Source of the DNA: Candidatus Nomurabacteria bacterium
Lineage (GTDB): Bacteria; Patescibacteriota; Minisyncoccia; Phycocordibacterales; UBA9973
Assembly (NCBI GenBank): GCA_963842815.1
Contig: CAWJHU010000001.1
Location: forward strand, 179,020-243,019
DNA length: 64,000 bases
Direction: 5' to 3'
The translations under genes and the position numbers were made by a program. The notes beneath the pieces are model-generated. The model ran no database searches, was not told the origin of the DNA, and saw only the letters and a program-made list of their open reading frames with translations. Of the stretch, positions 5,714 to 41,326 are shown piece by piece. Each line of letters opens with the position of its first letter. Within the stretch, counting starts at the first letter, position 1.

Positions 5714-6580
5714 CTACTCTTTTTTGTTGATATCTGCGTCTTTTACAAGATAAATCCAATCCATAAGCGAAAGTTCTTCCGCTCTTTTGTTTTTAAGGGT
5801 ATTTTCAGAGGATTTTTTTAGAAAAATTTGTGAATTTTTCAAATTTGACGACAGTTTTTTCCTTTTGTGGGCAAATCCGGCGCGAACTATCTCCCAAAAT
5901 TGTTTTTCATCTATTTTATTTTCGGTAAAAAGTTTTCTGGAAATATTTTTTATGGCAATTACAGCTGAATCCACTTTTGGAGCCGGTGAAAAATATCTTG
6001 CCGGCACCTTCATAATCATTTAGGTTCTCCATATGCTTTTACGGAGATTGAAAGAATACTTTCTTTTTTATCCCGAGCCATTATTCTTTGGGCCACTTCG
6101 TTTTGCACCATCAGAATCATTCTTTCCGGCTGGTTTTTTTCCGTCAGAAATTTTTTCAATATGGCGCCGGTAATGTTGTAAGGAATATTGGCGATAATTT
6201 TATAAAAACATGGCATGAAGTTTTTTTCATGGTCTGGCCGGGATAGGGACCCGGGGATCCGAGGACCTGAAAAAAATTTGCAGGCCATGTTTTTAATATC
6301 AGCGTTCAAAATATCTTCATTCATTAAAATTAATTTTTTATTTTTGATTTCCTCGGAAAATTTTTCTTGAAGCAGTTGAAAAAGATCTCGATCTTTTTCA
6401 ACTGCAATTACGCATCCGGCTTTTTCCAAAAGTTTTTCCGTGAGTACCCCTTTCCCTGGTCCGATTTCCAAAATAATATCTTCGCTCGAAATTTCTCCGG
6501 CTTCAACAATTTTATTGAGCGCAGGAATCTGATTTCAAAAAATTTTGCCCCAATGATTTTTTTGCTTTATGTATCATATG
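5714..6580 (-). CDS. ksgA: 16S rRNA (adenine1518/1519-N6)-dimethyltransferase KsgA/RsmA; two single-base frame breaks at homopolymers plus an in-frame 42-bp palindromic insertion
   Basis: Translations give [14 protein letters not shown] (frame C), then [44 protein letters not shown]..., then (third frame) [23 protein letters not shown]. These are the KsgA motifs GQNFL, EIGPG, NxPYNI and PPKVDS. The breaks are at an A-run near 6537..6546 and an A3 run at ~6019..6021. The inserted peptide [14 protein letters not shown] lies between the conserved D and the NIPYNI motif. Confidence 0.75.
6229..6270. repeat. 42-bp palindromic mini-element copy A (ATGGTCTGGCCGGGATAGGGACCCGGGGATCCGAGGACCTGA), in-frame inside ksgA, flanked by T-run/A-run
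   Basis: Near-identical to 8290..8331 (one G/A difference). It has internal inverted symmetry (GGTC...GACC, CCGGG..CCCGG), is GC-rich in an AT-rich genome, and its length is a multiple of 3. Confidence 0.8.
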
Positions 6581-8585
6581 TAAATTGTTTTTATTCCACC
6601 CTTCTCTCCTTCCTTTTCTAATAAATCTCCCGGAATATCGGAAATAAATTCGGAAGGAGTATTTATTTGGCGCGAACCGAAAATGGTGCGGAAATTCGCG
6701 AAAGATAAAAATAATTTTTCTTTGGCGCGAGTAAGGGCGACATAAAAAAGCCGGCGTTCTTCTTCTCTATCTTCGGCAGTTTTTATTTCACCGTCTCTTT
6801 CGTGCGGGAAAAGTCCGTCTTCCAGGCCGGTGATGAAAACATATTTAAATTCAAGTCCTTTTGAAGCATGCACAGTCATTAATTTCACCGCATTTTTTCG
6901 TCTTTTTTATTTTCCGTAATCATTAGCGAGTCTTGGTCTGAGGCCAGAGATGCATCTTCCAAAAGTTTTTCAATTCCCATTCCATCCTTTAAATTATCAT
7001 ATTTTAAGGCCAAAGTGGCCAATTCCTTTATGTTTTCCAATCTTTCCATATCTTCTTCCGTTCCCGCTTTAAGTTCATCTTCAATGCCGGATTTTTTTAC
7101 CGTGAATTTTATAACATCGGATGCTTTTTTATTTTTTATTTTTTCTTTTATTTCTTCCAGTGTTTTGTAAAAATTATCAATTTTTATTTTTATTTTTATC
7201 GGCAAACTTTCTTTTTCTCCGGCAAAAATTTTAGCAAAGTCACTTTCCCTATTCCCCGTGCCGGGAAATTTATAATTCTTTTTATATCCGAAAGACTTTC
7301 CGGATTAAGGCCGCGCGAAGATAAGCAAGAGTGTCTTTAATTTCTTTTCTCTCAAAAAATTTAACACCCAAAACTTGATATGGAATATTGTATTGAAGCA
7401 TTGCTTCTTCCAGCGCGCGCGATTGAAAATTTGCGCGGTACAAAATTGCAATTTCAGACATCGACTCATTCGATCCTATCTAGTATTTCCAAAATTTTGT
7501 CGCGACAAATCCGCTTCGTCGTTTTCGTCTAGCGCTTCATAAAAACCATTTTTTCGCCATTTTATTTTTGGTAAATAAATTTTTATCCGGCCTGATATTT
7601 ATTTTTCTTTGATTATTTCATTGGCCGCTTCCAAAATATTTTGCGTGGAACGGTAATTTTCTTCCAATAAAATTATTTTCGCTTTCGGATAATCTTTTTC
7701 AAAACTCAAAATATTTTTTAAATTTGCTCCGCGCCAGGAATAAATATTTTGGTCGGCGTCTCCCACCACGCAGATATTTTTATTATTTTCCGGAAAGCAA
7801 GTTTGGACATCAAATATTGCACTTCATTGGTGTCTTGATATTCATCAATGTGAATATATTCCCATTTTTCCTGATAAATTTTTCTGATTTCTTTATTTTC
7901 TTTCAGTAATTTTGTCGCTTTCAAAAGCAAATCATCAAAATCCAAAGAATTTTCTTTCGTTTTTTTTTTTTCATACAAACTCCACACTTGCGCCACGATT
8001 TTACCCAAGTAATCCGTTGCTTTTTCTGCATAATCTGCAAGATGGGTAAATTTCCCTTTTTCCCGGCTGATTATATTTTTTATTTTTTTCGGGTCGTATT
8101 GTTTCGGGTCCAATCCAAGTTCTTTCATGGCTTCTTTTATCAAGGTCGTTGAATCTGATTCATCTAAAATAGTAAAATGTTTGGTCAGCCCCAACAATTC
8201 GCGCATTTTCTTTGATTATATAAACTCCCAGAGAATGAAAAGTGCTAATAAAAGGCCTACTAACAACTTCGCCGGTAATACTTTTTTGAATGGTCTGGCC
8301 GGGATAGGGACCCGGGAATCCGAGGACCTGAGAAAAAGCATTACCGGCGAAGTTTGTTTTTATTGCCGAATTAATTCTTTCTTGCATTTCCTTGGCGGCT
8401 TTATTAGTAAAAGTAACAGCTAAAATTTTCTCCGGCGCCACCCCGTTTTTTATCAGATTTAGTATTCTGTGCGTGATTGTTTTAGTTTTCCCCGCCCCCG
8501 CTCCCGCCACAATCAAAAGCGGTCCCTCCATATGCATGGCCGCTTCCCTTTGTTTGTTATTGAGTTCCGATAAATGGTCTGACAT
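6574..8585 (-). CDS. uvrD: UvrD/PcrA-family ATP-dependent DNA helicase, ~670 aa, split into at least 4 frames by single-base homopolymer indels; carries in-frame 42-bp palindromic insertion
   Basis: The N-terminal fragment has Walker [11 protein letters not shown] and TFTNKAA. The middle has DEYQDTN and [39 protein letters not shown] (translated by me from 7230..7480). The C-terminal fragment has [24 protein letters not shown] and [15 protein letters not shown]. Removing one G from the G4 run at ~8178..8181 restores [18 protein letters not shown]. The inserted peptide [14 protein letters not shown] precedes ISTFHSLGV. Confidence 0.75.
8290..8331. repeat. 42-bp palindromic mini-element copy B (ATGGTCTGGCCGGGATAGGGACCCGGGAATCCGAGGACCTGA), in-frame inside uvrD
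   Basis: Same as copy A, with the same TTTTT...AAAAA flanks. It is translated in a different frame from copy A. Confidence 0.8.
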
Positions 8586-10018: not shown

Positions 10019-10061
10019 AGAAAAAAGAATATTAATGCTTTTTAGAAAATTTCAAAAACAA

Positions 10062-10140
10062 TGTTTTTAAGGGGTTTCGAGCGCGACGGCGCGAGAATTT
10101 CAGGATTTTTTAAGCTTCAAAAAATCCGTACCGGCAAAAA
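10062..10140. repeat. Intergenic repeat copy 1 (79 bp) with GC-rich 17-mer core GAGCGCGACGGCGCGAG, embedded in a ~110-nt long hairpin (arms 10047..10068 / 10136..10157)
   Basis: Near-exact duplicate at 15426..15504. The 17-mer recurs (reverse orientation) at 22186..22202 inside another long hairpin. Internal hairpin GGATTTTTTAAG/CTTCAAAAAATCC. Confidence 0.8.
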
Positions 10141-10157
10141 TATTGTTTTTGAAATTT

Positions 10158-10883
10158 TTATACTCCTGCCAATTTTATTGCACTGTATAAAACAGTGACC
10201 CCCAATATTGTAGCAACTGTGGTCCACATTGTGGGGTGATTATGATGGCTTTCAGGCAGTAAATCCGAGGCTCCAATATACAGAAAAAACCCACTAAATA
10301 TGGCTAAAATCACGCCTAGAGTGGCTTCAGAAACCGAAAAAAACAAAGTAGAAGTTATTCCCAAAACCGGAGCAATGGCATCAACAGAGAGCCATTTGAA
10401 TGCCTGTTTTTGTGTACCAGAATTTTTTAAAATCATATTTACCGTATTTATTCCGTCGGAAAAATCATGTACCAAGACGGCAACAGCTACAATGGCGCCG
10501 ACGGCGCTTGATACTTGAAAAGCCAAGCCGATGGCAACGCCATCCAAAAAACTGTGTATAGACAAACTTCCGGCCCCGAGCAACCCCCTCCTATTAGGAG
10601 GACAATTTTCGCTGTTGTGGTCGGAATGCGAATGAAAGAAAAAAAGTCTGTCCAAAAGCATGTAAACAATAAAACCAAGAGCCACAATGGAAGTAATAAA
10701 AGCGATATCATAACTTTGTTTCCCTAGGCTCAATGCCTCCGGCAATAAATCAAAAAAGGCTACGCCGATAACTGCTCCGGCCGAAAAACCTAAAATCAAA
10801 TGTAACTTATCTTTAAAACGCAAAGCAAAAATTCCGCCTAAAAAAGTGGAAACCAATGTCGCTATGCTTATCAAAATAATCAT
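10158..10883 (-). CDS. ZIP family metal (zinc) transporter, ZupT-like
   Basis: Multi-TM protein with a His-rich loop HSHSDHNSENCPP and the HDFSDG / HNHP motifs typical of ZIP transporters. Confidence 0.65.
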   Translation of the reverse strand: MIILISIATLVSTFLGGIFALRFKDKLHLILGFSAGAVIGVAFFDLLPEALSLGKQSYDIAFITSIVALGFIVYMLLDRLFFFHSHSDHNSENCPPNRRGLLGAGSLSIHSFLDGVAIGLAFQVSSAVGAIVAVAVLVHDFSDGINTVNMILKNSGTQKQAFKWLSVDAIAPVLGITSTLFFSVSEATLGVILAIFSGFFLYIGASDLLPESHHNHPTMWTTVATILGVTVLYSAIKLAGV

Positions 10884-10884
10884 G

Positions 10885-10955
10885 TGCGGGATGGGAGAAT
10901 CGAACTCCCAACCTCAGTTTGGAAAACTGACGTTTTACCATTAAACTAATCCCGC
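10885..10955 (-). tRNA. tRNA-Gly (anticodon TCC)
   Basis: Cloverleaf on the reverse complement. Acceptor GCGGGAT/ATCCCGC, D-stem GTTT/AAAC, anticodon stem TCAGT/ACTGA with loop TTTCCAA, T-arm GGGAG-TTCGATT-CTCCC. Confidence 0.75.
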
Positions 10956-10979
10956 AAACATTTATTTTTTGTCGAAGAG

Positions 10980-11050
10980 TCGGGCTGCTGGGAATTGAAC
11001 CCAGTCTAAACGCTCCCAAAGCGCTTGTACTACCGGTATACTACAGCCCG
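10980..11050 (-). tRNA. tRNA-Pro (anticodon TGG)
   Basis: Reverse complement CGGGCTG..., anticodon stem AGCGC/GCGTT with loop TTTGGGA, T-arm CTGGG-TTCAATT-CCCAG, acceptor closes with CAGCCCG + A. Confidence 0.7.
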
Positions 11051-11064
11051 ATTAGATAAAAGTA

Positions 11065-11475
11065 TCATAAAATTATATCTTCCACAACTTTTATCCTCGC
11101 TTTTTTGTTTTTTATATCTAAAAAAACCACTAATAAATCAACCTGCCATTCCTTTTCTTCGTTCACTTTTTCACTTAAAAGATAAGTTTGAATTGTCCGT
11201 GACATTCTTTTCAATTTCCATGGATGCATATTGTCTTCCGGATGGTAATTGTCCATCGTTTCACGATTAACATCATCCAAGGTTTCACGCGAAACACTTT
11301 TTACCTCAACAAAGTGCAACTTCCCTTCTTTTTCAGCCACGATATCTATTTCTCCCCATTTTTTAGTATAATTACGGCTCAGTATTGAAAAACCATGTTT
11401 CATGAGAAACCTTACGGCGGTGTTCTCGCCAATTTCCCCTATCTTTTGTGTTTCTGAAGTAAAAACCTTTGGCAT
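11065..11475 (-). CDS. yraN: YraN/UPF0102 family endonuclease
   Basis: GEIGENTAVRFLMKHGFSILSRNYTKKWGEIDIVAEKEGKLHFVEVKS matches the UPF0102 GEIDII...FVEVK signature. Confidence 0.7.
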   Translation of the reverse strand: MPKVFTSETQKIGEIGENTAVRFLMKHGFSILSRNYTKKWGEIDIVAEKEGKLHFVEVKSVSRETLDDVNRETMDNYHPEDNMHPWKLKRMSRTIQTYLLSEKVNEEKEWQVDLLVVFLDIKNKKARIKVVEDIIL

Positions 11476-11726
11476 TTTCTCTTTGTTTCATGTAAAACAC
11501 TCAAAATAGTGTTTCACGTGAAGGAAATTACTTAATTTTATGTCTTTTAATATAATATCCTTATTTTGTAACGTATTTTTGATAAATTGGCCATAAAAGA
11601 CAACATTTCAATGTGTCCTTTATGAACATTACCAACATAGTTATCCACAGTTTTTAATAAAATCCTTATGAATAAAGGAGAAACTAAAAGACACATAGTT
11701 GATAACTAAACTTATCCTTTTTTATG

Positions 11727-11798
11727 TGCACCCGGAGGGATTCGAACCCCCAACAACTGCTTCGAAGGCAGGGATGATATCCATTTCACCACGGGTGC
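11727..11798 (-). tRNA. tRNA-Arg (anticodon TCG)
   Basis: Reverse complement GCACCCG-TG-GTGA..TCAT-C-CCTGC-CTTCGAA-GCAGT-...GGGGG-TTCGAAT-CCCTC-CGGGTGC-A. There is one mismatch in the anticodon stem. Confidence 0.6.
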
Positions 11799-11909
11799 AA
11801 GGCTGTTTATTATACTATAATTTTTTTTAATTAACAAAATTGCAATATTTTTACTAAAATATTATAATTGACTGACTTATTATTAATAAAACAAGTATAA
11901 CAAATAATA

Positions 11910-11980
11910 GCGGTTATGGTTTAGTGGTAGAACACGTCCTTGCCAAGGATGAGACGGGAGTTCGATTCTCCCTAGCCGCA
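11910..11980 (+). tRNA. tRNA-Gly (anticodon GCC)
   Basis: GCGGTTA...anticodon stem CGTCC/GGATG with loop TTGCCAA; T-arm GGGAG-TTCGATT-CTCCC; acceptor TAGCCGC + A. Confidence 0.75.
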
Positions 11981-12112
11981 CAAAAAAGTTTTTATGATTA
12001 ATTCAAAAACTTAATATCTAAAATCCCTAAAGAGGTTTCATATGTAACGGACACGCTTGAAAAAGCTGGTTTTGAAGCATACCTGGTTGGCGGATGTGTT
12101 AGGGATATTTTA

Positions 12113-13569
12113 ATGGACAGAGAGCCAAAAGATTGGGACGTAACCACTAACGCCAAACCGGAACAAATCATCAAACTTTTCCCAAAAACGGTCTATGAGA
12201 ATGAATTTGGAACCGTAATGGTTATTCAGGAAGATGTTCCTTATGAAACATTACGTCAAATAGAGGTTACGCCATATAGAATTGAGACAAAATATAGTGA
12301 TTTTAGACACCCAGACGAAGTAAAATTCAGCGACAAATTAGAAGATGACCTTAAAAGACGTGATTTTACTATAAATGCCATGGCCTTTAGAAATACAAAA
12401 GGCAATTCTAGTATAACGGACATGTTTGATGGATTAAAGGACATCAAAGATAAAATGTTAAAGGCAGTAGGGAACCCGGATGATCGTTTTAAAGAAGATG
12501 CTCTCCGAATGTTGCGAGCTGTGCGCATAGCTTTACAGCTTGGTTTTTCTGTGTCCTATGAAAGCAGTGAAAGTATTTTAAAAAATGCAAATTTAATAAA
12601 AAAAATTTCACCGGAAAGAATTCGCGATGAATTTACAAAAATAATTTTATCGGAAAATCCGTCTGTAGGAATTGTAATGCTGCAAAAATTGGATTGCTGA
12701 AAAATATAATTCCAGAATTGGAAGAGGGGATTGATTGTGAGCAAGGAGGGGAGCATATTTACGATGTTTTTAACCATTTGCTTCATGCCTTGCAACATTC
12801 GGCGGACAAGAATTGGCCTTTAGAAGTAAGGCTCGCAGCGCTTTTTCACGATATTGGGAAACCAAAATCTAAACGACTTGCTCCGCAGGAAAATGCTCTC
12901 CGTCATTCGCATTCCATCCTGGAAGGGCAAGATATTTCTGGCCGCAGCGAAGATTCCTCCGAGCATCTTCCTGCTACGCGAAAACAATTTACATTTTACG
13001 GTCATGAAGTTGTTAGTACAAAAATGGCAAAAAAAATAATGGAGCGATTAAAATTTTCCAAAAAAGAGATTGAATTAGTGGAAAAATTAGTTCGCAATCA
13101 TATGTTTTTTTCCGATACGGAATTAATTACGCTTTCCGCGGTGCGAAGAATTATTACCAAAGTTGGCAAGGAAAATATTTGGCTCCTGATGGATGTCCGT
13201 GAGTGCGATAGAGTGGGAATGAAGAAAAAAGAAACGCCCTATCGTCTGCGAAAATATTTTGCCATGATAGAAGAGGCATTGCACGATCCGATTTCTGTCG
13301 GACAGCTGAAAATTAATGGAGAATTTATGATAAAAGAGCTGGGAATTGTCCCCGGACCAAGAATGGGGTGGATTTTACATGCGCTTTTAGAAGAAGTATT
13401 GGATGATCCGAAAAAAAATACCAAAGAACATCTTTCAGAATTAGTTAAATCATTAAATGTACTTCCTGATGATGCCTTAAGGACATTGGGCGAGCGCGGA
13501 AAAGAAAAAAAAGAAGAGCTGGAAGAAAAAGAAATAGAAAAATTACATACAAAACATGGAGTGAGGTAA
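12113..13569 (+). CDS. cca: CCA-adding tRNA nucleotidyltransferase with HD domain. The true start is probably upstream (~12040) and there is one frame break at 12691..12692 (GG vs expected GGG)
   Basis: The head domain is (Y)LVGGCVRDILMDREPKDWDVTT...RRDFTINAMA. The HD domain is LAALFHDIGKPKS...FYGHEVV. Adding one G gives the continuous ...IVMLQKLGLLKNIIPELEE. Confidence 0.75.
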
Positions 13570-13590
13570 AAAATATGTTAAGATAAAAAT

Positions 13591-14499
13591 ATGAAGATTG
13601 GAATTTTTGATTCGGGGGTGGGAGGGCTGATTATTGCCAAGGCAATAAGAAAAGCGATGCCGGAATATGATTACGTTTATTTGGGAGACACAAAAAGAGT
13701 GCCCTATGGCAATCGTTCACACCAGGCTGTATTTGAGTTTACCAAAGAGGCGATGAATTATTTATTTAAGAAAGAAAATTGCGCCATTGTTATCATTGCT
13801 TGCAACACCGTTTCAGCCAGAGCGCTCCGAAGAATCCAACAGGAATATTTGATTGATTACAACAATACCCGCAGATTGATGGGGGAGTCTGTTGAAAGAA
13901 AAATACTTGGAGTTTTAATTCCTACAGCCGAGGAATGCGCCAAATATGGAAGAGTGGGAATTTTAGGAACTTCCGGAACCATAAACTCAAATACTTTTCC
14001 GAAAGAGGTCAAAAAAAAGAATTCATTACTTTTTCACGGCTCGCACTCGAACCTGAATGTGGTTCACGAACCTAATATTGCGTATGCCGAAAAAAGTAAG
14101 AATTCTTTTTCTAGAACAAAAGTTTTTCAAAACTCTGCGCCTATGCTGGTGCCTTTGATTGAAGAAGGGGAGAAAGTTTTGGCCAAGGAATTTCTTAAAA
14201 AATATTTAAAACCATTTTTAAATAAAAAATTGGATGCAGTTGCTCTTGGTTGCACTCATTATCCATTTTATAAGAACGAAATTAAAAAAATTCTCGGCAA
14301 AAAAGTAAAAGTAATTTCTCAGGATGAAATTGTTCCCAAAAAACTGAAAGATTATTTTGTCCAGCATCCGGAACTTGTAAAAAGATTGGCCCAAAATGGC
14401 AAAGCCAAAATTCTTGTTACCGATATAACTCCCAATATAATAAAACTGTCTAAAAAATGGTTCGGTAAAAATGCAAGGCCGGAATTAATTGAAATATAA
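13591..14499 (+). CDS. murI: Glutamate racemase MurI (with ~30-aa internal insertion)
   Basis: MKIGIFDSGVGGL, IIACNTVS and ALGCTHYP motifs. Extra segment NSLLFHGSHSNLNVVHEPNIAYAEKSKNSFS before PMLVPLIEEG. Confidence 0.8.
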   Translation: MKIGIFDSGVGGLIIAKAIRKAMPEYDYVYLGDTKRVPYGNRSHQAVFEFTKEAMNYLFKKENCAIVIIACNTVSARALRRIQQEYLIDYNNTRRLMGESVERKILGVLIPTAEECAKYGRVGILGTSGTINSNTFPKEVKKKNSLLFHGSHSNLNVVHEPNIAYAEKSKNSFSRTKVFQNSAPMLVPLIEEGEKVLAKEFLKKYLKPFLNKKLDAVALGCTHYPFYKNEIKKILGKKVKVISQDEIVPKKLKDYFVQHPELVKRLAQNGKAKILVTDITPNIIKLSKKWFGKNARPELIEI

Positions 14500-14507
14500 A
14501 ATAAAAT

Positions 14508-14591
14508 GCCGTGGTGGCGAAATTGGTAGACGCGCTAGTTTCAGGTACTAGTGGAAGCAATTCCTTGGGAGTTCGAGTCTCCCCCACGGCA
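14508..14591 (+). tRNA. tRNA-Leu (anticodon CAG), long variable arm
   Basis: GCCGTGG..., anticodon stem CTAGT/ACTAG with loop TTCAGGT, long variable arm, T-arm GGGAG-TTCGAGT-CTCCC. Confidence 0.75.
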
Positions 14592-14601
14592 CAAAAAATT
14601 T

Positions 14602-15369
14602 TTACATCTCCAGCCAAATCGGGCAATGGTCGGAACCGTAATAATCGGACATTATGCCTGTACTTTTTATTTTAGGAACAATTTCAGAACTGGCGAAAAA
14701 ATAGTCAAAACGCCAGCCGACATTTCTATCCCTGGCAAAAGTTTTCATGTCCCAATAGGTGTAGGCGCCGATTTTATCCGGATAAAATTTTCTGAAAACA
14801 TCTATAAAATTATTTTTAATTACTTTATCAATCCAAGCGCGTTCAATGGGTAGGAAGCCGGTATTTTCTTCGTTTGCTTTCGGACGAGCCAAATCTATTT
14901 CTTTATGAGAAGTATTTACATCTCCGCAAAAAATAACGTGTTCGCCATTCTTTCGCAATCTCAGGATAAATTTTAAAAAGGCGTCATAAAATTCAAGTTT
15001 GTATTTCAGGCGCGCCGGACCTTGTCCGCCGTTCGGGAAATAAGCAGTGATTATAGTGAAATTTTTATATTTAGCGCCCACCAGTCTGCCTTCATCGTCA
15101 AACTTTTTGATGCCCATGCCATAAAAAACTTCCTTCGGTTTCTCTTTGGAATAAATTGCCACTCCGCTGTAGCCTTTTCTTAATTTGGAAGAAGAAAAAT
15201 AAGAATAATACCCGGGCACATTTCGTGTTTCTTCTGTAAGTTGTTCCGGCTCCGCTTTTGTTTCCTGCAGACACAAAATATCCGGCTTCCCTTCGGCGAA
15301 CAGGGGATTAAAAAATCCTTGTTTGGCGGTGGCTCTTAACCCATTTGTGTTCCACGAAACTATTTTCAT
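14602..15369 (-). CDS. xth: Exodeoxyribonuclease III (AP endonuclease)
   Basis: MKIVSWNTNGLRA...LCLQETK...WDYF...GSDHCP, the Xth/APE1 EEP-family signature. Confidence 0.85.
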   Translation of the reverse strand: MKIVSWNTNGLRATAKQGFFNPLFAEGKPDILCLQETKAEPEQLTEETRNVPGYYSYFSSSKLRKGYSGVAIYSKEKPKEVFYGMGIKKFDDEGRLVGAKYKNFTIITAYFPNGGQGPARLKYKLEFYDAFLKFILRLRKNGEHVIFCGDVNTSHKEIDLARPKANEENTGFLPIERAWIDKVIKNNFIDVFRKFYPDKIGAYTYWDMKTFARDRNVGWRFDYFFASSEIVPKIKSTGIMSDYYGSDHCPIWLEM

Positions 15370-15425
15370 ATATTATTATGATAGCATAAAGTTTCACGGA
15401 TTTATTAGTAAAAAATAGGAAAATA

Positions 15426-15504
15426 TCTTTTTAAGGGGTTTCGAGCGCGACGGCGCGAGAATTTCAGGATTTTTTAAGCTTCAAAAAATCCGTACCGGCA
15501 AAAA
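15426..15504. repeat. Intergenic repeat copy 2 (79 bp) with 17-mer core, inside a long hairpin
   Basis: Near-identical to 10062..10140. Flanking arms AAAATATCTTTTT / AAAAAGATGTTTT are inverted. Confidence 0.8.
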
Positions 15505-15519
15505 GATGTTTTTTATTTT

Positions 15520-16434
15520 TTACTTTCTGCTGTGAAACTTTTTATGCACATCCAATAATTGTTTGTCGGTAACGTGCGTGTAGATTTGAGTGGTGGCAAT
15601 ATTTGAATGCCCTAGCATCATTTGTACACTCCTGATATCTGCGCCATTTTGCAATAAGTCGGTAGCGAAGCAATGTCTGATAATATGCGGAGTAACTTTT
15701 TTTGAAATGCCGGCCCTGATGGCATATTGCTTTACGATTCTCTCAATGGATCTCTTGGTCAATGGGCCGGTTTCTTTTTCAGAAGTTTCCTTTCCTACTT
15801 TTACAAAAAGGGCGTCGTCCATATCTTTTCGCAACGTCAGATATTTTTTAATAGCATTTTTCGCTTCTTGGGATATAAAAACTACGCGAACTTTTCCGCC
15901 TTTTCCGCGAATGGAAAATTGTTCAGAATGGAGATCAATATCATTAGTTAAACTGCAAAGTTCCGAAACGCGGAGACCGGTAGAAAAAAGAAGTTCCAAG
16001 ATAGCTTTATCTCGGAGTGATTTTATATCATTTCCTTTGGGAGCATCCAACAAACGGTGGAGTTCTGTTTGAGAAATTAAATCCAGAGATCTTTCGCTAA
16101 TCTTAGCCAATTCTATCCGCTCGGCGGACATAGTTTCTATTTCTTGCCGTGCCAGATATTTTAAAAATGCCCTGATGGCTATCAGGTAATAATTTTGAGT
16201 TTTCTTAGTTAAAGTTTCGCCGGTTGCCCTATTGTTGCCGGTGGATTGGCGGTTGAGCCAAAGGCGGAATTCTCGCACCACATTGTCGTTTATTTTTGCC
16301 GGATTATCATTTTTTATAAAATCTAAAAAGCGAGTGAGATAATGGTCGTAGTTTCTGACAGTATTGAGCGCTCGGCCTCTTTCTATTTCCACATATTCCA
16401 AAAATTGAGTTTTGAGCTGTTTTAAAGATGCCAT
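15520..16434 (-). CDS. xerD: Tyrosine recombinase XerC/XerD
   Basis: Phage-integrase N-terminal SAM-like domain plus C-terminal R..HxxR..Y motifs (RHCFATDLLQNGADIRSVQMMLGHSNIATTQIYTHV). Confidence 0.8.
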   Translation of the reverse strand: MASLKQLKTQFLEYVEIERGRALNTVRNYDHYLTRFLDFIKNDNPAKINDNVVREFRLWLNRQSTGNNRATGETLTKKTQNYYLIAIRAFLKYLARQEIETMSAERIELAKISERSLDLISQTELHRLLDAPKGNDIKSLRDKAILELLFSTGLRVSELCSLTNDIDLHSEQFSIRGKGGKVRVVFISQEAKNAIKKYLTLRKDMDDALFVKVGKETSEKETGPLTKRSIERIVKQYAIRAGISKKVTPHIIRHCFATDLLQNGADIRSVQMMLGHSNIATTQIYTHVTDKQLLDVHKKFHSRK

Positions 16435-16503
16435 AGTTTAAGTATACCAAATATTGTGCGACATCGCTGTTTTATCTTGCAAATTCAACGACTTTATGCT
16501 AAG

Positions 16504-16776
16504 ATGAAGCCCATGTTAACTACCAAGAAAAAGCAAACAGTTATAAAGAAAAACCAAGTTCACGAGAAAGATACAGGCTCTTCCGAGGTGCAGGTGGCTG
16601 TTTTGTCTACCCAAATAGAGGAGTTAGCCAAGCATTTAAAGAAACACAAAAAAGACAATAGTTCTCGCCGGGGACTCATTAAAATGGTGGCTGACAGACG
16701 CACTCATTTGAAATATTTGGAACGCAAAAACAAGCCCCGCTATAATGCACTCATGAAGAAGATGAATCTCTCCTAG
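16504..16776 (+). CDS. rpsO: 30S ribosomal protein S15
   Basis: ...DTGSSEVQVAVLSTQIEELAKHLKKHKKDNSSRRGLIKMVADRRTHLKYL is the classic S15 sequence. The start is chosen at the internal ATG (16504 or 16513) rather than the track's 16456. Confidence 0.8.
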   Translation: MKPMLTTKKKQTVIKKNQVHEKDTGSSEVQVAVLSTQIEELAKHLKKHKKDNSSRRGLIKMVADRRTHLKYLERKNKPRYNALMKKMNLS

Positions 16777-16796
16777 TTTTTTGCTATACTTAATCT

Positions 16797-17303
16797 ATGA
16801 CAGTTATAAAAAATAAGGAGCAGAGAGTAGGAGTTTTTATTGATACGCAAAATCTATATCATTCGGCTCGCAATTTATACAACGCGCGGGTAAATTTCGG
16901 CGCAGTTCTGAAAGAAGCGGTAGCGGGCAGAAAACTTGTCCGGGCGGTGGCTTATGTCATTACTTCCGAAGCGGGTGATGAGAAAAATTTTTTTGAAGCG
17001 CTGGAAAAACTTGGCATTGAAACAAAAACAAAAGATTTGCAAGTTTACGGTGGCTTTAAAAAAGGCGATTGGGATGTCGGCTTGGCAGTGGATGCCATTA
17101 AGTTTGCGCCCAAATTGGATGCTGTCGTGCTTGTCGCCGGTGACGGCGATTATGTGCCTATGGTTGAATATATTCAGAACATAGGTACGCAAGTGGAAGC
17201 TATTTCTTTCGGCAAATCAACTTCCGGCAAACTTCGCGAAGCGGTGGATGATTTTATTGACCTTTCTTTGAATCCGAAGAAATATTTAATAGGGGTGAGG
17301 TAA
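16797..17303 (+). CDS. NYN-domain (LabA-like, PIN-like nuclease fold) protein, paralog 1 of 3 in window
   Basis: VGVFIDTQNLY ... VLVAGDGDYVPMV matches the NYN/LabA fold signature. Confidence 0.65.
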   Translation: MTVIKNKEQRVGVFIDTQNLYHSARNLYNARVNFGAVLKEAVAGRKLVRAVAYVITSEAGDEKNFFEALEKLGIETKTKDLQVYGGFKKGDWDVGLAVDAIKFAPKLDAVVLVAGDGDYVPMVEYIQNIGTQVEAISFGKSTSGKLREAVDDFIDLSLNPKKYLIGVR

Positions 17304-17338
17304 ACCTAGGTACTAAATTTAATGTGTGGGTAAATGTA

Positions 17339-17367
17339 TTGACATTGTCATTACATTAATATATGCT
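17339..17367 (+). promoter_or_regulatory. Sigma70 promoter (TTGACA-17-TATGCT) with operator-like palindrome TGACATTGTCA for the dinJ-yafQ pair
   Basis: -35 at 17339..17344, -10 at 17362..17367. The palindrome overlaps the -35 and spacer. The ATG at 17376 implies a leaderless or short-leader mRNA. Confidence 0.5.
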
Positions 17368-17375
17368 TGTATTAT

Positions 17376-17651
17376 ATGAATACAACAATACAAATTAGAA
17401 TAGATTCACCTACTAAATTAAAAGCCCAAAAAGCATTTAAGAATATGGGACTAGATTTATCTTCTGGAATTAAATATCTTTTAACTCAAGTAAGCAACTC
17501 AAATAGTCTTTCTTATATTTGTGATTTTGGATATTTACATAAATATACTCCAGAAATGTTGAAACAATTCCAAAAAGAGGAGAAGTTAGCTTTAAAAAAG
17601 AAACCACGTTTTTCTTCAGTTAAGGAAATGTTTGATGATTTAGAAAAATAA
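17376..17651 (+). CDS. dinJ: Type II antitoxin, RelB/DinJ family
   Basis: IQIRIDSPTKLKAQKAFKNMGLDLSSGIKYLLTQV fits a ribbon-helix-helix DinJ-like N-terminus. It is 1 nt from the toxin gene. Confidence 0.7.
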   Translation: MNTTIQIRIDSPTKLKAQKAFKNMGLDLSSGIKYLLTQVSNSNSLSYICDFGYLHKYTPEMLKQFQKEEKLALKKKPRFSSVKEMFDDLEK

Positions 17652-17927
17652 ATGCTAATTCCCGAATACTTAAATTCTTTTAGAAAATCTTATAAAAATT
17701 TCCGTCGGGGTGGAAGAATATCTCGTGCTGATGTGGAGGATATTGTTTTAATGATTACTCAGGGAGAAATTCTCCCAATAAGATGCAAAGATCATAAACT
17801 AACAGGAGAATATGAAGGATATAGAGAGTGTCACATAAAAAAAGATATTTTAATTATTTACAAAATAGATAAATTACGCTCCTTATTAATCTTGAGAAAT
17901 ATAGGCACCCATTCAGAACTTTTTTAA
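17652..17927 (+). CDS. yafQ: Type II toxin, YafQ/RelE family mRNA interferase
   Basis: DHKLTGEYEGYRECHIKKDILIIYKIDK...LRNIGTHSELF is the YafQ signature. Confidence 0.75.
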   Translation: MLIPEYLNSFRKSYKNFRRGGRISRADVEDIVLMITQGEILPIRCKDHKLTGEYEGYRECHIKKDILIIYKIDKLRSLLILRNIGTHSELF

Positions 17928-17947
17928 GAGTATTGAACTAATTAGAA

Positions 17948-18241
17948 TTATTGATTTTCATCAATCTTTAAAAGCAAAGATTCTTCTTCTTTTAAGATAC
18001 TGTCTAAAGAAATTTTATTTTTAGTTTTAAAAGCTTTACTTTTTTCCATTATGTTCTTAGTTAAAACATCAAATATAGATGGGTCTTTAGTTAATATTTC
18101 TGCCATGTCTTTTAATTGGTTATCGCTGAGACTAACTAAAAATCGAAGCCATATTTCCTTTTGACTAGACGAAACATTTGATGCCCTAAGCAAATTTCCA
18201 ATAGGATGAGGTATTTTTTTGTGCTCTGTGTTAATAATCAT
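17948..18241 (-). CDS. Hypothetical protein (97 aa)
   Basis: ORF only. Confidence 0.35.
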   Translation of the reverse strand: MIINTEHKKIPHPIGNLLRASNVSSSQKEIWLRFLVSLSDNQLKDMAEILTKDPSIFDVLTKNIMEKSKAFKTKNKISLDSILKEEESLLLKIDENQ

Positions 18242-18260
18242 GATTGTTTATTATACAAGA

Positions 18261-18911
18261 TTATTGTTCAAAATTCGGAGGGATGACCACCCCTTTGGTT
18301 TCTTCATATGGTTTTCCAACAACTTTTGTTAATTCACCATTATTTACTAAAACAACCTTTGTGGCTCCGTCTGAAAAATGCATTATAAAAGATGTATAAG
18401 AATTCTTATCATCTTCTGCTAACGGAACACCTGGCGTCACTTCTACACTATCTATAAATTTGCCATCACTAAATTGTTGACTAAAATCTATTAAACTTCT
18501 TTTTATTTCAATATCATATGCTTTTCCTATTTGCATATCTTTTATCCCTGGTGTTGCACTCAAAAGTTCAAAGCTTCCGGTTGTTTCATTAAAGAAAATA
18601 CCCTCAGGTAACTGTTCTTTTGAACCATGTTGGTTTAACTCTCCACCTAAGATTTTCGCTATTTTTATTTTTAATTTATGCTGACCTTCATAAAAAAATT
18701 CCTGAAAATCTTTTTTAACTTCGGGAGTATTTCTATGTTGTTGAGCAATTGCTTCTTGTGCAGTAAAAGAAGTTATTACTAAAAGAAGCCCACCTATGGT
18801 TTTCGCAGTCGAAGAGTGCATCTTTTTTAAGAAAGCTGATTCTTTATTTTTTACATTATTTTCAGAGTTTTCTGGAGATTCTATGTTGTTTTTTCTTTCA
18901 AAGGAAAACAT
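18261..18911 (-). CDS. Hypothetical secreted/membrane-anchored protein (216 aa)
   Basis: Hydrophobic segment TIGGLLLVITSFTAQEAIA after a basic N-terminus. Confidence 0.45.
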   Translation of the reverse strand: MFSFERKNNIESPENSENNVKNKESAFLKKMHSSTAKTIGGLLLVITSFTAQEAIAQQHRNTPEVKKDFQEFFYEGQHKLKIKIAKILGGELNQHGSKEQLPEGIFFNETTGSFELLSATPGIKDMQIGKAYDIEIKRSLIDFSQQFSDGKFIDSVEVTPGVPLAEDDKNSYTSFIMHFSDGATKVVLVNNGELTKVVGKPYEETKGVVIPPNFEQ

Positions 18912-19132
18912 GGTAAAACTATATCATAAGTTAAAAAAATATGGAAGATCAGGTGTTTATATTTTTAAAATAACAAAAAGCCCTTATGAATTCAGGTCCA
19001 TATTTTTGCTTTTTTGTTTGAATAATGTTAAGGTGGTAGTAGTTTATTAGTTAATCCGTTCGCCTTTAGATAGAGATAGTGTCTCACTTTATGGTGAAAC
19101 AATACTTTATTCTGAAGGAGAACTAAAAAAAT

Positions 19133-21246
19133 ATGAAGAAAAAAGAGTATTCAGTCGAGATTGGCGGCAAAACATTGACCGCTGTTTTCTCCGATTTAGC
19201 AGAGCAAGCGCATGGTTCGGTAATTTTAAAATATGGCGAGACGATTGTGCTCGCTACTGCCTGTATGTCTAAGGACAAGCAAGAAGGGCTCGGATTTTTC
19301 AATTTAACGGTGGATTATATGGAAAAGTTTTACGCGGCCGGGAAAATTTTAGGATCTCGATTTATGCATAGGGAAGGCAAACCGTCGGAAGACGCGATAC
19401 TGGCTTGCCGGGTCATAGACAGGACTCTGCGTCCGCTTTTTGACCAGTCTATTCGTCATGCGGTGCAAGTGATTACCACAGTTATCTCTTTAGATGTGGA
19501 TGATCCTACAATATTGGCCATTAATGCTGCTTCTCTAGCCTTGGCTGTGTCCGATATTCCTTGGGCAGGACCGATAGGGGCTGTGCGCATTGGGAAATAT
19601 AACGATGAAAATCTAAAAATAAATCCTGCACAGGCTTTAAGGCAAGATGACACAAAGTATAAATTTGACCTGACTATCTGCGGGAAGGGCGGGAATATAA
19701 ATATGATTGAGGCATCAGCTCATCAAATAAAGGAAGAAGAATTGGAAGAAGCATTCAAAGTAGCAAGTGAAGAAATAACTAAATTGGAGAATTTTCAGAA
19801 GAAAATAGTGGCTGAAATAGGTATTCCGAAAAGAGTGATAGAAAAAGAGAAAATTGGAGACGAATCAGTAAAATTATTCAAAGAAAATATTTTGCCCAAG
19901 ATGGAAGGCGCTTTGTTTGCCGGAGTGGGAAAAAAGAAAATAGATGAATTGCATAATGTCTGGAACAAAATGGTGGCAGAGAAATATTCGGATAGAAAAG
20001 ATTTTGCTTTGGAAGACAATCTTTTTGATGATACAGAAAATGATATGTTGCATGAAAAAGCTGTAAATGAAAATAAACGTGCGGACGGACGAGCCATGGA
20101 TGAACTTCGTGATTTGTATGTTCAAGCCGGAGGAATTTCTTCTATCTTGCATGGTTCAGCGGAATTTTTTATCGCGGAGGAACGCATGTGCTTTCCGTGC
20201 TTACTCTCGCCGGTCCTGAAGAAAAACTTTTGGTTGATGGCATGGAAAATAAAGAAGAAAAAAGATTTATGCATCATTATAATTTTCCGCCTTATTCTTC
20301 CGGAGAAGTGGGCAGAATCGGTACGACTAATCGCCGGGAAATAGGACACGGGGCTCTTGCTGAAAAAGCGCTGACCATGGTCTTGCCAAGTGTGGAAAAA
20401 TTTCCTTACACCATGCGCCTAGTTTCCGAATCAATGGCTTCCAACGGTTCCACTTCCCAGGCTTCCATCTGCGCCTCCTCGGTTGCCCTGATGGACGGAG
20501 GAGTGCCCATTAAAGCGCCGGTGGCCGGTATTGCCATGGGATTGATGTATGAGAATGATAATAAATATAAAATTTTGACCGACATCCAAGGTCCGGAAGA
20601 CCATCATGGCGATATGGATTTCAAAGTTGCCGGCACCAGGGAAGGTGTCACAGCTATCCAGTTGGATGTAAAGGTGGAAGGAGTGCCGATAAAAATATTG
20701 GGTGAGGCCATGAAACAGTCCCAGAAAGCGCGACTCCAAATTTTAGACACGATTGAAAAAGAAATTCCTGCGCCGAGAAAAGAAATTTCTCCAAATGCGC
20801 CGAAAATTTTAGTTATAAAAATCAAACCGGATCAAATCGGCATGGTTATAGGTAGCGGAGGAAAAGTCATTAAAGAAATAAAAGAAAAAACCGGAGCCGA
20901 AATAACCATTGAAGATGATGGAACAGTGTATTTAACCGGCAAAGACGACAAAGCCCAAAAGGCCAAAGCTGTCATAGAAGAAATGACCCACGAATTCAAG
21001 GTGGGAGAAATTTTGAAAGGCGAAGTGGTAAAATTAGCGGATTTTGGAGTCTTTGTCCGACTGAATCCTTTTACCGACGGAATGGTGCACATCTCCGAGA
21101 TGGCTCCGTTTCGCGTAGAACGAGTTAGCGATATAATAAGAGAAGGAACGATCGTGCCGGTGAAGGTTATAAAAATTGATGAAGAAAGAGGGAAAATTAG
21201 CTTGTCCATCAAGGAAGCAGATAAAAATTTCTTTAGAAAACCATAA
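19133..21246 (+). CDS. pnp: Polyribonucleotide nucleotidyltransferase (PNPase); single frame break in T6 run at 20165..20170 (T7 restores frame)
   Basis: RNase PH domains, then HGSA(E/I)FF-YRGGTHVLSVLTLAGPEE after adding one T, then KH (MVIGSGGKVIKEI) and S1 (GEVVKLADFGVFVRL) domains. Total ~705 aa. Confidence 0.85.
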
Positions 21247-21255
21247 AAATTTTCA

Positions 21256-22125
21256 ATGGATGAAAATAAATTAAAAAGTAAAAATGTGGAAACCTATGCG
21301 GAAGATATGGCCAAGGCCATTGGGGGCAATAAAGAAGGATTGATAAAAAAAATAATCCACGAAGAAGAAGAACACGAAGCCCAAAAGAAAAATTTATCTC
21401 CTAAATCTCAAAAAAATAGAATATTTATGCTCATCGGCATTATTCTCATAATTTTTGCTTTGGCTATTTTAATTTTTTTGGCATTTTTTAATAAAAAAAT
21501 TAACACTGTTTCCATTGCGCCCCAAATGGCTTCCCTTATTTTTACCGATCAGACCGATTTCAAAGCAATTGATGGATTTAACGAAAATAAAATAACGGAA
21601 ACCATTTTAAACCAAGTTAATAACACTAAAATAAAAATTGGCGGAATTGACGGAATTTATCTGACTGAAAATAATAAAGTTGTAGGGTTTAAAGAATTCA
21701 ACTCGCTCATAAAAAGCAGTCTGACTCCCGACCAGGTTAACTTAATTGGTGATAATTTTTTGCTTGGCGATTTTTACAGCGGATTGAAGCAAACTTCGCC
21801 CACAGCCGGGGATTTATTTATGCTTCTCAAAGTAAATTCTTTTTCCAGTGTATTTCCGATGATGCAAACTTGGGAAAATAAAATGCTTTATGATTTAGGC
21901 GGATTTTTCGGAGTAAATATAACTCCTGACACAAATTATTTATTCACAAAAAGTTTTGAGGACGGCATCGTGGCCAACAAAAACGCGCGAATGCTCAAAG
22001 ATAACAGCGGAAATATCGTATTGATGTATGTATTTGCCGATGATAATTCTATAATCATTTCCAATTCCACGAATGCGGTGAATGAAGTAATTTTGCGATT
22101 GAATTCCAGCAAGATAAAAAAGTAA
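21256..22125 (+). CDS. Hypothetical membrane protein (289 aa)
   Basis: Single TM FMLIGIILIIFALAILIFLAFF after a charged N-terminus. Confidence 0.5.
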   Translation: MDENKLKSKNVETYAEDMAKAIGGNKEGLIKKIIHEEEEHEAQKKNLSPKSQKNRIFMLIGIILIIFALAILIFLAFFNKKINTVSIAPQMASLIFTDQTDFKAIDGFNENKITETILNQVNNTKIKIGGIDGIYLTENNKVVGFKEFNSLIKSSLTPDQVNLIGDNFLLGDFYSGLKQTSPTAGDLFMLLKVNSFSSVFPMMQTWENKMLYDLGGFFGVNITPDTNYLFTKSFEDGIVANKNARMLKDNSGNIVLMYVFADDNSIIISNSTNAVNEVILRLNSSKIKK

Positions 22126-22232
22126 GCAGGCAGAAAACACAAAATTTTAGAGCCCGAGTATTTTTCTGCTGAAAAATCTCTCAAGACTCGCGCCGTCGCG
22201 CTCCGTAGTCTCTAAAATCTTGTGTTTCCTGC
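22126..22232. terminator. Long (~107 nt) imperfect palindrome / hairpin containing the 17-mer CTCGCGCCGTCGCGCTC (22186..22202), third member of the repeat family
   Basis: Arms GCAGGCAGAAAACACAAAATTTTAGAG / CTCTAAAATCTTGTGTTTCCTGCC. It lies between two plus-strand genes. Confidence 0.6.
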
Positions 22233-22285
22233 CTTTTTAAATATAGAATATTTGCTTTTTTTAATGAAAATGCTAGGCTTTAGGG

Positions 22286-26591: not shown

Positions 26592-26711
26592 ATTTAATAA
26601 GGTTATTTTTATTAATCTTCGACCTTGCCCCGCCGAAGGCGGTGGCCGTTTGTTTAATAATTACTACCAATACATTATATATCAAGGGTTTTTTAAGGCA
26701 AGCCTTGTATT

Positions 26712-40177: not shown

Positions 40178-40347
40178 AATAAGGCTAGAATTGGGGTTGG
40201 GGATAAAGGGGGCTAAAGGGCTTGACATTTGGGTTGATTAGGTGTATTATAATACACAGATAAAGGTTTGTCAATTTTCTTCGAAAAATAAAACAGCTTT
40301 GGCGGATATCCCGCACAAGGCATCACATTTAACTTATAGGAGGCGTT
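40178..40347 (+). promoter_or_regulatory. Repeated promoter + 5' leader module, copy 1 (-35 TTGACA 40222..40227, -10 TATTAT 40245..40250, AGGAGG 40338..40343)
   Basis: ~170-bp block near-identical to 42099..42270 and 43863..44046. The untranslated leader between the -10 and the SD is conserved over ~95 nt. Confidence 0.75.
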
Positions 40348-41256: not shown

Positions 41257-41282
41257 GAAGACATCTAGAATTACAGTGCCCG

Positions 41283-41316: not shown

Positions 41317-41326
41317 ATAACTAAAT

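What the first reader, a model, noticed from the sequence alone, without database searches (positions are those of the whole stretch)
10047..22232. Family of ~110-nt intergenic long hairpins sharing a GC-rich 17-mer (GAGCGCGACGGCGCGAG)
Copies at 10062..10140 and 15426..15504 are near-identical over 79 bp. Each is embedded in a longer inverted-repeat stem (AAATTTCAAAAACAAT...ATTGTTTTTGAAATTT; AAAATATCTTTTT...AAAAAGATGTTTT). A third long palindrome at 22126..22232 carries the same 17-mer in reverse orientation but otherwise different arms. All three lie in intergenic gaps at gene ends. The 17-mer is strikingly GC-rich for this genome. The family could be a MITE-like element, a protein-binding site, or a small structured RNA.
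Basis: seen in the sequence. Interest (0 to 1): 0.5.

Follow-up and report, generated by a model that had tools for sequence, protein, structure and literature searches.

The report
Mobile structured hairpin repeats of Patescibacteria
The three GC-rich hairpins are copies of a previously uncatalogued, mobile, non-coding repeat that is spread across the ultra-small Patescibacteria (CPR) bacteria: a conserved, structure-constrained ~57-nt three-way-junction core sits on top of a long A/T-rich stem that differs at every locus.

Summary
The 17-mer occurs three times exactly, against 0.04 expected by chance. Copies 1 and 2 share a 77-nt identical block. All three copies sit in ~110-nt hairpins that abut stop codons.

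The 17-mer is only the commonest form of one hairpin (P2) in a conserved three-way-junction core. About 75 further copies, carrying the exact 17-mer or variants of it, were found in Nomurabacteria, Paceibacterota, Adlerbacteria, Saccharibacteria and other CPR MAGs. Covariation is strong in all helices, and the outer stem always pairs but differs at every locus.

No Rfam family, phage record or plasmid record matches.

Comparison with relatives shows presence/absence polymorphism. The closest relative lacks copy 3 but carries copies at two sites that are empty in the window. One 10-14-nt spacer was filled independently several times.

The same element sits in frame inside mnmA in other genomes. 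Three unrelated cores with the same architecture sit in frame inside ksgA, pcrA, murI and recJ in this window.

Best reading: a non-autonomous mobile palindromic element, comparable to Rickettsia RPEs and mitochondrial GC clusters. Its single-stranded fold is under selection. The mobilising enzyme and the origin of the locus-specific arms are unknown.

The parts
10046..10158 (+). Copy 1 (subtype A). The outer stem is 10046-10068/10136-10158, the conserved core is 10064-10140 and the P2 17-mer is 10079-10095. It lies between the convergent M23-peptidase and ZIP genes, and its 3' arm ends on the ZIP stop codon.
   Evidence: (89.4 bits, E 5e-27)
15411..15521 (+). Copy 2 (subtype A). The core 15428-15504 is identical to copy 1, and the 17-mer is 15443-15459. 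The outer stem has a different sequence. It lies between the xerC stop and the xth start, antisense to both genes.
   Evidence: (91.5 bits); Logan contigs break inside it
22123..22239 (-). Copy 3 (subtype B). The outer stem is 22123-22152/22210-22239, the 57-nt core is 22153-22209 and the 17-mer is 22187-22203. It starts directly after the stop codon of ORF 21256-22125. It is absent at the orthologous site of the closest relative, L148.
   Evidence: (84.5 bits)
6203..6295 (.). Hairpin element with the same architecture but an unrelated core (family 2). It is read in frame inside ksgA/rsmA. An orthologous insertion in relative L228 has arms that changed on both sides yet still pair.
8262..8358 (.). 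Second family-2 element, in frame inside pcrA/uvrD. It shares the 56-nt core with 6221-6276 and has different arms.
14009..14115 (.). Family-4 hairpin element, in frame inside murI.
57849..57978 (.). Family-3 hairpin element, in frame inside recJ. A relative of this core fills the dksA|comM spacer in L150 and L165.

Best explanation
The three hairpins are copies of a non-autonomous, mobile palindromic repeat family confined, as far as seen, to Patescibacteria (CPR).

Anatomy. Each copy has a conserved ~57-67-nt core carried on a long outer stem.
- The core folds, in the strand that reads GAGCGCGACGGCGCGAG, into a three-way junction.
- P2 consists of a covarying lower helix, a tandem G.A/G.A internal loop, a covarying upper helix and a GACG or GUCG loop. 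The 17-mer is its commonest version.
- P3 is an A/U-rich hairpin with an ANCA or AAGCUUC loop.
- The junction carries conserved UU..AG and CG(U/G)(A/G)C.
- The outer stem (P1) is 12-31 bp, nearly perfect and A/T-rich. Its sequence is specific to each locus.

Shown.
- The fold is under selection, and on one strand.
- Copies are gained and lost at orthologous sites.
- They land overwhelmingly next to stop codons, and occasionally in frame inside genes.
- Orthologous arms persist and co-evolve so that pairing is kept.
- In mnmA the stem includes native conserved codons, so the palindrome incorporates flanking host sequence.
- The core can lie in either orientation within homologous arms.

Inferred.
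- The core is the recognition module for an unidentified mobilising activity acting on single-stranded DNA or RNA.
- The palindrome is maintained or extended by intrastrand template switching or by selection.
- At gene ends the long hairpin, in some copies with A/T runs at its ends, probably acts as a transcription stop or an RNase III-type processing site. That would explain why it is tolerated.
For: Widespread family: a genome-contig scan found about 65 CPR loci with the same architecture, while hits in high-GC genomes lack it.

Structure:
- 87.8% of cells are paired, against 35-57% when the partner is slid.
- 207 double-change cells are seen, against 64 in shuffles; 0 of 500 shuffles reach the observed value.
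- Variants lacking the 17-mer keep P2 through compensatory changes: GGCU/AGCC, GUGU/ACAC, UUGGC/GCCAA.

Strand:
- The outer stems hold 45 G.U against 12 A.C.
- The sense strand folds more stably in 67 of 70 copies.

Mobility:
- L148 has 12 nt where the window has copy 3.
- L148 has ~100-120-nt elements where the window has 14 nt and 7 nt.
- The dksA|comM spacer is filled in L148, L154 and L161 with different arms and P2 variants, is filled with another core family in L150 and L165, and is empty in more than 10 relatives.

Coding insertions: the element sits in mnmA in L070, L126 and L230, where homologs without it have 13-19 aa. Families 2-4 sit in frame in ksgA, pcrA, murI and recJ.

Arm co-evolution: window versus L228 and L150 versus L165.

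Position: 47 of 70 copies have a stop codon within 30 nt of a hairpin end.

Not catalogued or linked to an IS: no Rfam hit, no phage, plasmid or IMG/VR match, and no transposase among the 36 window ORFs scanned.
Against: - No mobilising gene was identified.
- No target-site duplication is visible.
- The relatives used for the empty/filled comparison are only ~70-88% identical in DNA, so insertion boundaries and the origin of the arms cannot be read exactly.
- The 67-nt subtype-A core is identical in many species, loops included. That fits a host-selected function as well as it fits recent spread.
- The orientation bias relative to genes (24 antisense against 7 sense between co-directional genes) is not explained by simple selfish insertion.
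- The evidence on net insertion size conflicts. At intergenic sites the whole hairpin is extra. In the coding cases the net gain is roughly the core (mnmA) or the core plus about one arm (ksgA).
- A T5 run follows only 31% of stems, so a terminator role is not general.
Confidence: 0.72

Rival explanations
1. This is a host-functional cis-acting RNA module rather than selfish DNA. It would be a CPR-wide 'punctuation' element at gene ends. Its long dsRNA stem and conserved three-way junction would recruit a conserved protein, such as RNase III, a K-turn/G.A-binding protein or a termination factor, to end, process or stabilise transcripts. Copies would arise by duplication and be retained by selection.
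For: The core is conserved nucleotide for nucleotide across phylum-level CPR lineages, with covariation and conserved tandem G.A motifs typical of RNA. In 47 of 70 copies a gene stop lies within 30 nt of a hairpin end. Stems average 21 bp, which is RNase III substrate length. In L142 several of the spacers between housekeeping genes carry one.
Against: The constrained strand is usually antisense to the gene whose 3' end it follows (38 against 19), so most mRNAs would carry the non-selected strand. Copies are absent from orthologous spacers in close relatives and differ between them. The same element lies in frame within mnmA, and analogous elements lie within ksgA, pcrA, murI and recJ, where no 3'-end role is possible. 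Several unrelated cores share the architecture.
Confidence: 0.2
2. This is an independently transcribed small structured RNA gene present in several paralogous copies.
For: The strand-specific structural constraint and the three-way junction.
Against: The hairpin fills the whole spacer between stop and start codons (distances -16 to +60 nt), which leaves no promoter. The promoter scan shows no enrichment. Copies occur inside ORFs. No Rfam family matches.
Confidence: 0.05
3. The pattern is due to chance similarity or to an assembly artefact, such as foldback chimeras creating palindromes.
For: The source assembly has homopolymer indel errors. Short-read contigs break inside the repeat.
Against: Expectation is 0.04 against 3 observed. 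The same architecture appears in more than 90 copies from many independent assemblies and sequencing projects. An independent Logan contig is identical across copy 3.
Confidence: 0.01

Closest known systems
Rickettsia palindromic elements (RPEs; Ogata et al. 2000, recalled from my own knowledge)
   Same: Hairpin-forming repeats of about 100-150 nt in a small, A/T-rich genome. They are non-coding and occur in several families. They are found in intergenic spacers and are inserted in frame into housekeeping genes, which remain open. No transposase is associated.
   Different: RPE copies are alike along their whole length. Here only the apical core is shared, and the stem is unique to each locus. 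The elements here are distributed across many CPR phyla. Sequence relatedness to RPEs was not tested.
Mitochondrial GC clusters (e.g. GC42), double-hairpin elements and repetitive hairpin-forming elements (PMC4478555 and references therein)
   Same: Short GC-rich, structure-constrained mobile hairpins in A/T-rich compact genomes. The constraint falls on stems rather than on sequence. They show presence/absence polymorphism, and their mechanism is unknown. The core here is also a double hairpin (P2 + P3).
   Different: Those elements are organellar, are 30-60 nt long and have a short AG/TAG target duplication. They have no long locus-specific outer stem.
Bacterial MITE/REP-type repeats (Correia/NEMIS, ERIC, BOX, REP/BIME; REP classes in PMC3733652)
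   Same: Multi-copy intergenic palindromes at gene ends that are co-transcribed with neighbouring genes. Correia and ERIC elements are RNase substrates (my own knowledge).
   Different: MITEs have family-wide terminal inverted repeats and direct target duplications. REPs are 20-40 nt with a GTAG/CGTC tag and a RAYT gene. None of these features is seen here.
Coding palindromes in Nematomorpha mitochondrial genes (PMC6649704)
   Same: Perfect inverted repeats are maintained inside functional protein-coding sequence, and both arms are translated. This compares with the arms in ksgA, pcrA, murI, recJ and mnmA, and with the 16-bp palindrome encoding [11 protein letters not shown] at 6372-6405.
   Different: Those palindromes have no conserved apical core and are not known to be mobile.

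Membership tests
Classical MITE | Terminal inverted repeats shared by all copies of the family | tested here: not met
   Outer arms differ completely between copies 1, 2 and 3 and among about 70 other copies. Only the innermost ~5-10 bp are shared within sub-groups.
Classical MITE | Direct target-site duplication flanking the insertion | tested here: inconclusive
   None is visible at three empty/filled sites, but the relatives are only ~70-88% identical.
Classical MITE | Presence/absence polymorphism at orthologous sites | tested here: met
   Window versus L148 at three sites. The dksA|comM spacer is filled in 5 or more relatives and empty in 10 or more.
Classical MITE | Cognate autonomous IS with matching ends | tested here: inconclusive
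   No transposase domain was found among the 36 ORFs of the window or L142 that were scanned. Whole genomes were not searched.
REP/BIME with RAYT | 20-40-nt imperfect palindrome with a GTAG or CGTC tetranucleotide at its foot | tested here: not met
   The unit is 57-67 nt with two hairpins. GACG lies in the P2 loop, not at a stem foot.
Rickettsia palindromic elements | Hairpin repeats inserted in frame in protein-coding genes as well as in spacers | tested here: met
   Family 1 lies in mnmA of L070, L126 and L230. Families 2-4 lie in ksgA, pcrA, murI and recJ of the window.
Rickettsia palindromic elements | Sequence homology to RPE-1 to RPE-8 consensus sequences | not tested
   No RPE sequences were available in the tools used.
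Any Rfam 15 RNA family | Covariance-model match | tested here: not met
   The window at gathering threshold gives only 5 tRNAs. Five element-bearing loci at E<=1 give nothing on the element.
Intrinsic (rho-independent) terminator | G+C-rich stem of 5-12 bp, small loop, U-tract directly after the stem | tested here: inconclusive
   The stems are long and A/T-rich with a 57-nt 'loop'. A T5 run lies at the 3' end in 22 of 71 copies, against a 6.7% background. The consensus scan does not call them.
Integron attC site | Conserved R''/R' boxes at the base of the hairpin, a variable apex, cassette arrays and an IntI integrase | tested here: not met
   The conservation pattern is the opposite: the apex is conserved and the base is variable. 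Copies are dispersed singly and in both orientations.

The most novel reading that the evidence does not exclude
The conserved three-way-junction core is the handle of a so far unknown mobilisation mechanism that works on single-stranded nucleic acid. On or after insertion, the mechanism builds a locus-specific palindrome out of the flanking host sequence, by inverted copying or template-switch conversion. Such a mechanism would explain four things: why every copy has its own perfect arms, why in mnmA the stem runs into native conserved codons, why the net gain in genes is about the core (ksgA about the core plus one arm), and why the core can flip. Several unrelated cores (families 1-4) would use the same machinery across the CPR.
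Probability: 0.2. Interest if true: 0.85.

Novelty: new variant of a known kind. Interest (0 to 1): 0.66.

Why it matters
Patescibacteria have some of the smallest and most compact bacterial genomes, and they are usually described as poor in repeats. A family of structured mobile hairpins would change that picture if it crosses CPR phyla, occupies the spacers after stop codons and even sits inside essential genes such as ksgA, pcrA, murI, recJ and mnmA.

There are practical consequences:
- The repeats break short-read assemblies, as seen here.
- They add 20-35 residues to conserved proteins.
- They can be mistaken for terminators or sRNAs.

There are also conceptual ones. The inverse conservation pattern, with a conserved apex and locus-specific stem, together with the strand-specific structural constraint, points to a recognition event on single-stranded DNA or RNA for which no enzyme is known. 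The covariance model built here gives a direct handle for searching for that enzyme by co-occurrence across genomes.

Tried and rejected
- Rfam at gathering threshold and at E<=1 gave no family.
- The literature holds no paper with the 17-mer and none linking RPE- or MITE-type elements to CPR.
- The IMG/VR hits to the 17-mer are chance or unrelated. They score ~20 bits, against 60-98 bits for true copies. A scan with the subtype-A P3/junction sequence found nothing.
- Phage and plasmid collections gave no match.
- Hammerhead and other ribozyme cores, K-turns, attC sites, REP/RAYT, IS200/IS605 ends, tRNA-like structures and retron ncRNA were considered by eye. All were dropped because their defining motifs or partner genes are absent.
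- A pseudoknot between the P2 loop ACG and the junction CGU was considered. It was dropped because subtype B changes the junction without a compensating change.
- I tested whether the arms are pre-existing terminator hairpins. Ordinary terminators in the window have 5-8-bp stems, and the empty sites at the dksA|comM spacer contain no palindrome. Some empty sites elsewhere do carry coreless hairpins (L150, L168), so the idea is not fully excluded.
- I tested whether the arms are hypermutable. This was rejected, because the orthologous arms of L150 and L165 are nearly identical.
- The marginal model hit at 4556-4620 (E 0.04) lacks P2 and is not counted as a copy.
- The consensus promoter/terminator scan was uninformative.
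- Exact-protein look-ups for strain-level variants returned only the same sample.
Full report
OBSERVATION. The 17-mer GAGCGCGACGGCGCGAG is exact at 10079 (+), 15443 (+) and 22187 (-). Dinucleotide-preserving shuffles give 0.04 matches even when three mismatches are allowed. Each copy lies in a hairpin of about 110 nt with long arms. Predicted energies lie 3.4-8.3 SD below shuffles. All three copies are intergenic, and one end of each hairpin touches a stop codon: ZIP at 10158, xerC at 15520 and the ORF ending at 22125. An independent Logan assembly of run ERR10755942 is identical to the window across copy 3. Other Logan contigs break inside copy 2, as expected for a repeat.

WHAT THE UNIT IS.
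- About 65 loci are low-GC Patescibacteria MAGs: Nomurabacteria, Paceibacterota, Adlerbacteria, Saccharibacteria, Magasanikbacteria, Zambryskibacteria and Parcubacteria.
- The rest are chance hits inside genes of high-GC genomes.
- Only the CPR hits show the architecture: a nearly perfect outer stem (median 21 bp) enclosing a core of 57-67 nt.

A 44-sequence alignment and a hand-drawn three-way junction give 87.8% paired cells, against 35-57% when the 3' partners are slid. They also give 207 cells with changes on both sides, against 64 in shuffles; 0 of 500 shuffles reach the observed value.

A covariance model built from this alignment finds exactly the three copies in the window (84-92 bits), plus one marginal hit that I do not accept. 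It also finds further copies in the CPR loci that lack the 17-mer. In these, P2 keeps its design: a lower helix, a tandem G.A/G.A internal loop, an upper helix and a GACG or GUCG loop. The helices are rewritten by compensatory changes, for example GCGC/GCGC to GGCU/AGCC or GUGU/ACAC, and UUC/GAA to UGC/GCA, CGC/GCG or UUGGC/GCCAA. The 17-mer is therefore the commonest allele of one helix, not the functional unit. Chance 17-mers in viral or high-GC DNA score only about 20 bits.

WHICH STRAND. In the outer stems, non-Watson-Crick positions are G.U in the 17-mer-sense strand 45 times and A.C 12 times (binomial p about 1e-5, not corrected for relatedness). The sense strand folds more stably than its complement in 67 of 70 copies. 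The conserved tandem G.A loops are also a single-strand feature. The constraint therefore acts on a single-stranded form of the sense strand, either RNA or ssDNA.

CONTEXT. In element-sense coordinates the neighbouring gene pairs are (-,-) 24, (+,-) 19, (-,+) 11 and (+,+) 7. In 47 of 70 copies a stop codon lies within 30 nt of a hairpin end. This happens twice as often at the 3' end, where the gene is antisense to the core, as at the 5' end: 38 against 19. Many copies fill the whole spacer between two genes, which leaves no room for a promoter. This argues against an independent sRNA gene. It also means that most read-through mRNAs carry the non-constrained strand. I cannot explain this bias. 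Only 31% of copies have a T5 run at the stem end, against a 6.7% background, so a terminator role is possible for some copies but is not general.

MOBILITY. A metagenome scan with the neighbouring ComM protein gave 80 related loci at 56-92% protein identity. The model finds only 13 copies in these 590 kb.
- The closest relative, L148, has 12 nt where the window has copy 3.
- Conversely, L148 has elements where the window has 14 nt (between dksA-like and comM) and 7 nt (near 26702-26710).
- The dksA|comM spacer is filled by family-1 elements with three different arm sets and three different P2 variants in L148, L154 and L161.
- The same spacer is filled by an element with a different core in L150 and L165. 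That core is related to the window's 57849-57978.
- It is empty (2-30 nt) in more than ten relatives, including the window.

These are repeated independent gains at one site directly after a stop codon. L148 and L164 carry elements at another shared site with homologous arms but with the core in opposite orientation. This is what recombination between the arms would produce. The orthologous arms of L150 and L165 are almost identical, so the arms are not hypermutable.

CODING INSERTIONS. In other CPR genomes the same family lies in frame in mnmA. The antisense strand is translated as ..SPDIFLLKNSSRLAPSRSVAS... Homologs without the core have 13-19 residues where the filled genes have about 38, so the net gain is about the size of the core alone. 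The stem in L230 and L070 includes the native, conserved codons S-Q-(S/N)-K-N, which means the opposite arm has been made complementary to host sequence. L229 keeps the distal arms and one proximal arm but has no core.

In the window itself, three unrelated cores with the same architecture lie in frame in ksgA (6203-6295), pcrA (8262-8358), murI (14009-14115) and recJ (57849-57978). These cores also occur in other CPR loci. The ksgA insertion is shared with a relative that is 77% identical. There the arms differ at several positions on both sides yet still pair.

At intergenic sites, by contrast, the whole hairpin is extra sequence relative to the empty sites. The origin of the arms is therefore unresolved. 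Part may arrive with the element, and part is clearly built from flanking sequence.

WHAT IT IS NOT. No Rfam 15 family matches. Phage records, plasmid records and IMG/VR give no match. No transposase domain occurs among the scanned ORFs of the window, which is an ordinary CPR chromosomal stretch with RNase Y, ClpP, trigger factor, NusA, TyrRS, PilB/C, ComEC and RecJ. None occurs in L142 either, where several of the spacers between housekeeping genes carry a copy. No paper in the searchable library contains the 17-mer or links RPE- or MITE-type repeats with CPR.

INTERPRETATION. The best-supported reading (about 0.7) is a non-autonomous mobile palindromic element. In behaviour it is closest to Rickettsia RPEs and to mitochondrial GC clusters and double-hairpin elements (PMC4478555). 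The arms behave like the coding palindromes described in PMC6649704. It differs from all of these in having a conserved, structure-constrained apical three-way junction on a locus-specific stem, and in being shared across CPR phyla.
- Shown: family, fold, strand, gain and loss, stop-codon proximity, in-frame residence and arm co-evolution.
- Inferred: that the core is the recognition module of an unknown mobilising activity, that template switching builds or maintains the palindrome, and that copies at gene ends act as transcript ends or RNase III sites.

The main rival (about 0.2) is a host-selected RNA punctuation element. The two readings are not mutually exclusive.

CAVEATS. Relatedness among copies inflates the simple statistics. 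The relatives used for the empty/filled comparison are diverged. The source assembly carries homopolymer indels, which may affect the A/T runs in the arms.

Noticed in passing
window 6016, ~6500, 8160-8206, 12694-12700, 20160-20190: ksgA, pcrA, cca and pnp are each split by a frameshift. For ksgA and pnp I read the shift at a homopolymer (A3 where A4 is needed, T6 where T7 is needed), which points to sequencing or assembly indel errors rather than pseudogenes. The pcrA and cca sites were not inspected. The public annotation also carries the truncated 151-aa KsgA.
   Followed up: partly
window 6203-6295, 8262-8358, 14009-14115, 57849-57978: Three further hairpin-element families share the architecture (A/T arms, GC-richer core) but have unrelated cores. 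All four copies lie in frame inside housekeeping genes (ksgA, pcrA, murI, recJ). Their cores recur in other CPR loci.
   Followed up: partly
window 6372-6405: A perfect 16+16-bp palindrome with a 2-nt centre encodes the conserved KsgA motif [11 protein letters not shown]. It is a coreless coding palindrome.
   Followed up: no
L150 ~3455-3490; L168 ~3645-3685; L159 ~6965-6995: Coreless perfect hairpins occupy intergenic sites that carry core-bearing elements in other relatives. In L150 the 5' arm includes the last codons and the stop codon of the upstream gene. They could be excision remnants or target hairpins.
   Followed up: no
L048 46-169 and L060 1906-2029: Two family-1 copies carry an extra ~35-nt module (GATTCTGCGGAATCATGTCGCG...CGCGAC) inserted in the P3 loop. 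This is either a nested insertion or a modular extension.
   Followed up: no
window 40218-44951: A ~1.8-1.9-kb unit is repeated three times in tandem. It encodes paralogous proteins with a Por_Secre_tail C-terminal sorting domain, and the upstream regions are nearly identical.
   Followed up: no
L003, L005, L011, L019, L020, L024 (IMG/VR marine viral contigs): Low-GC viral contigs share a GC-rich island ...GGATCAGGTCATTAGCGGAGC-17mer-TGCAGCGTGCATCCTGGTCCGGGCC followed by CAAGCT-type tandem repeats. The family-1 model does not recognise it beyond the 17-mer itself.
   Followed up: partly
window 10885-14591: Five tRNA genes lie on both strands around 11-12 kb, where gene orientation and cumulative GC skew switch sign. 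This may be close to a replication origin or terminus.
   Followed up: no
L126/P0125 and other MnmA homologs, residues ~125-165: A second variable insertion site lies in mnmA, after GHYA. It carries different hairpin-family-derived peptides in different genomes, for example SHGSHSILNMAD, which resembles the murI insert FHGSHSNLNVV.
   Followed up: no
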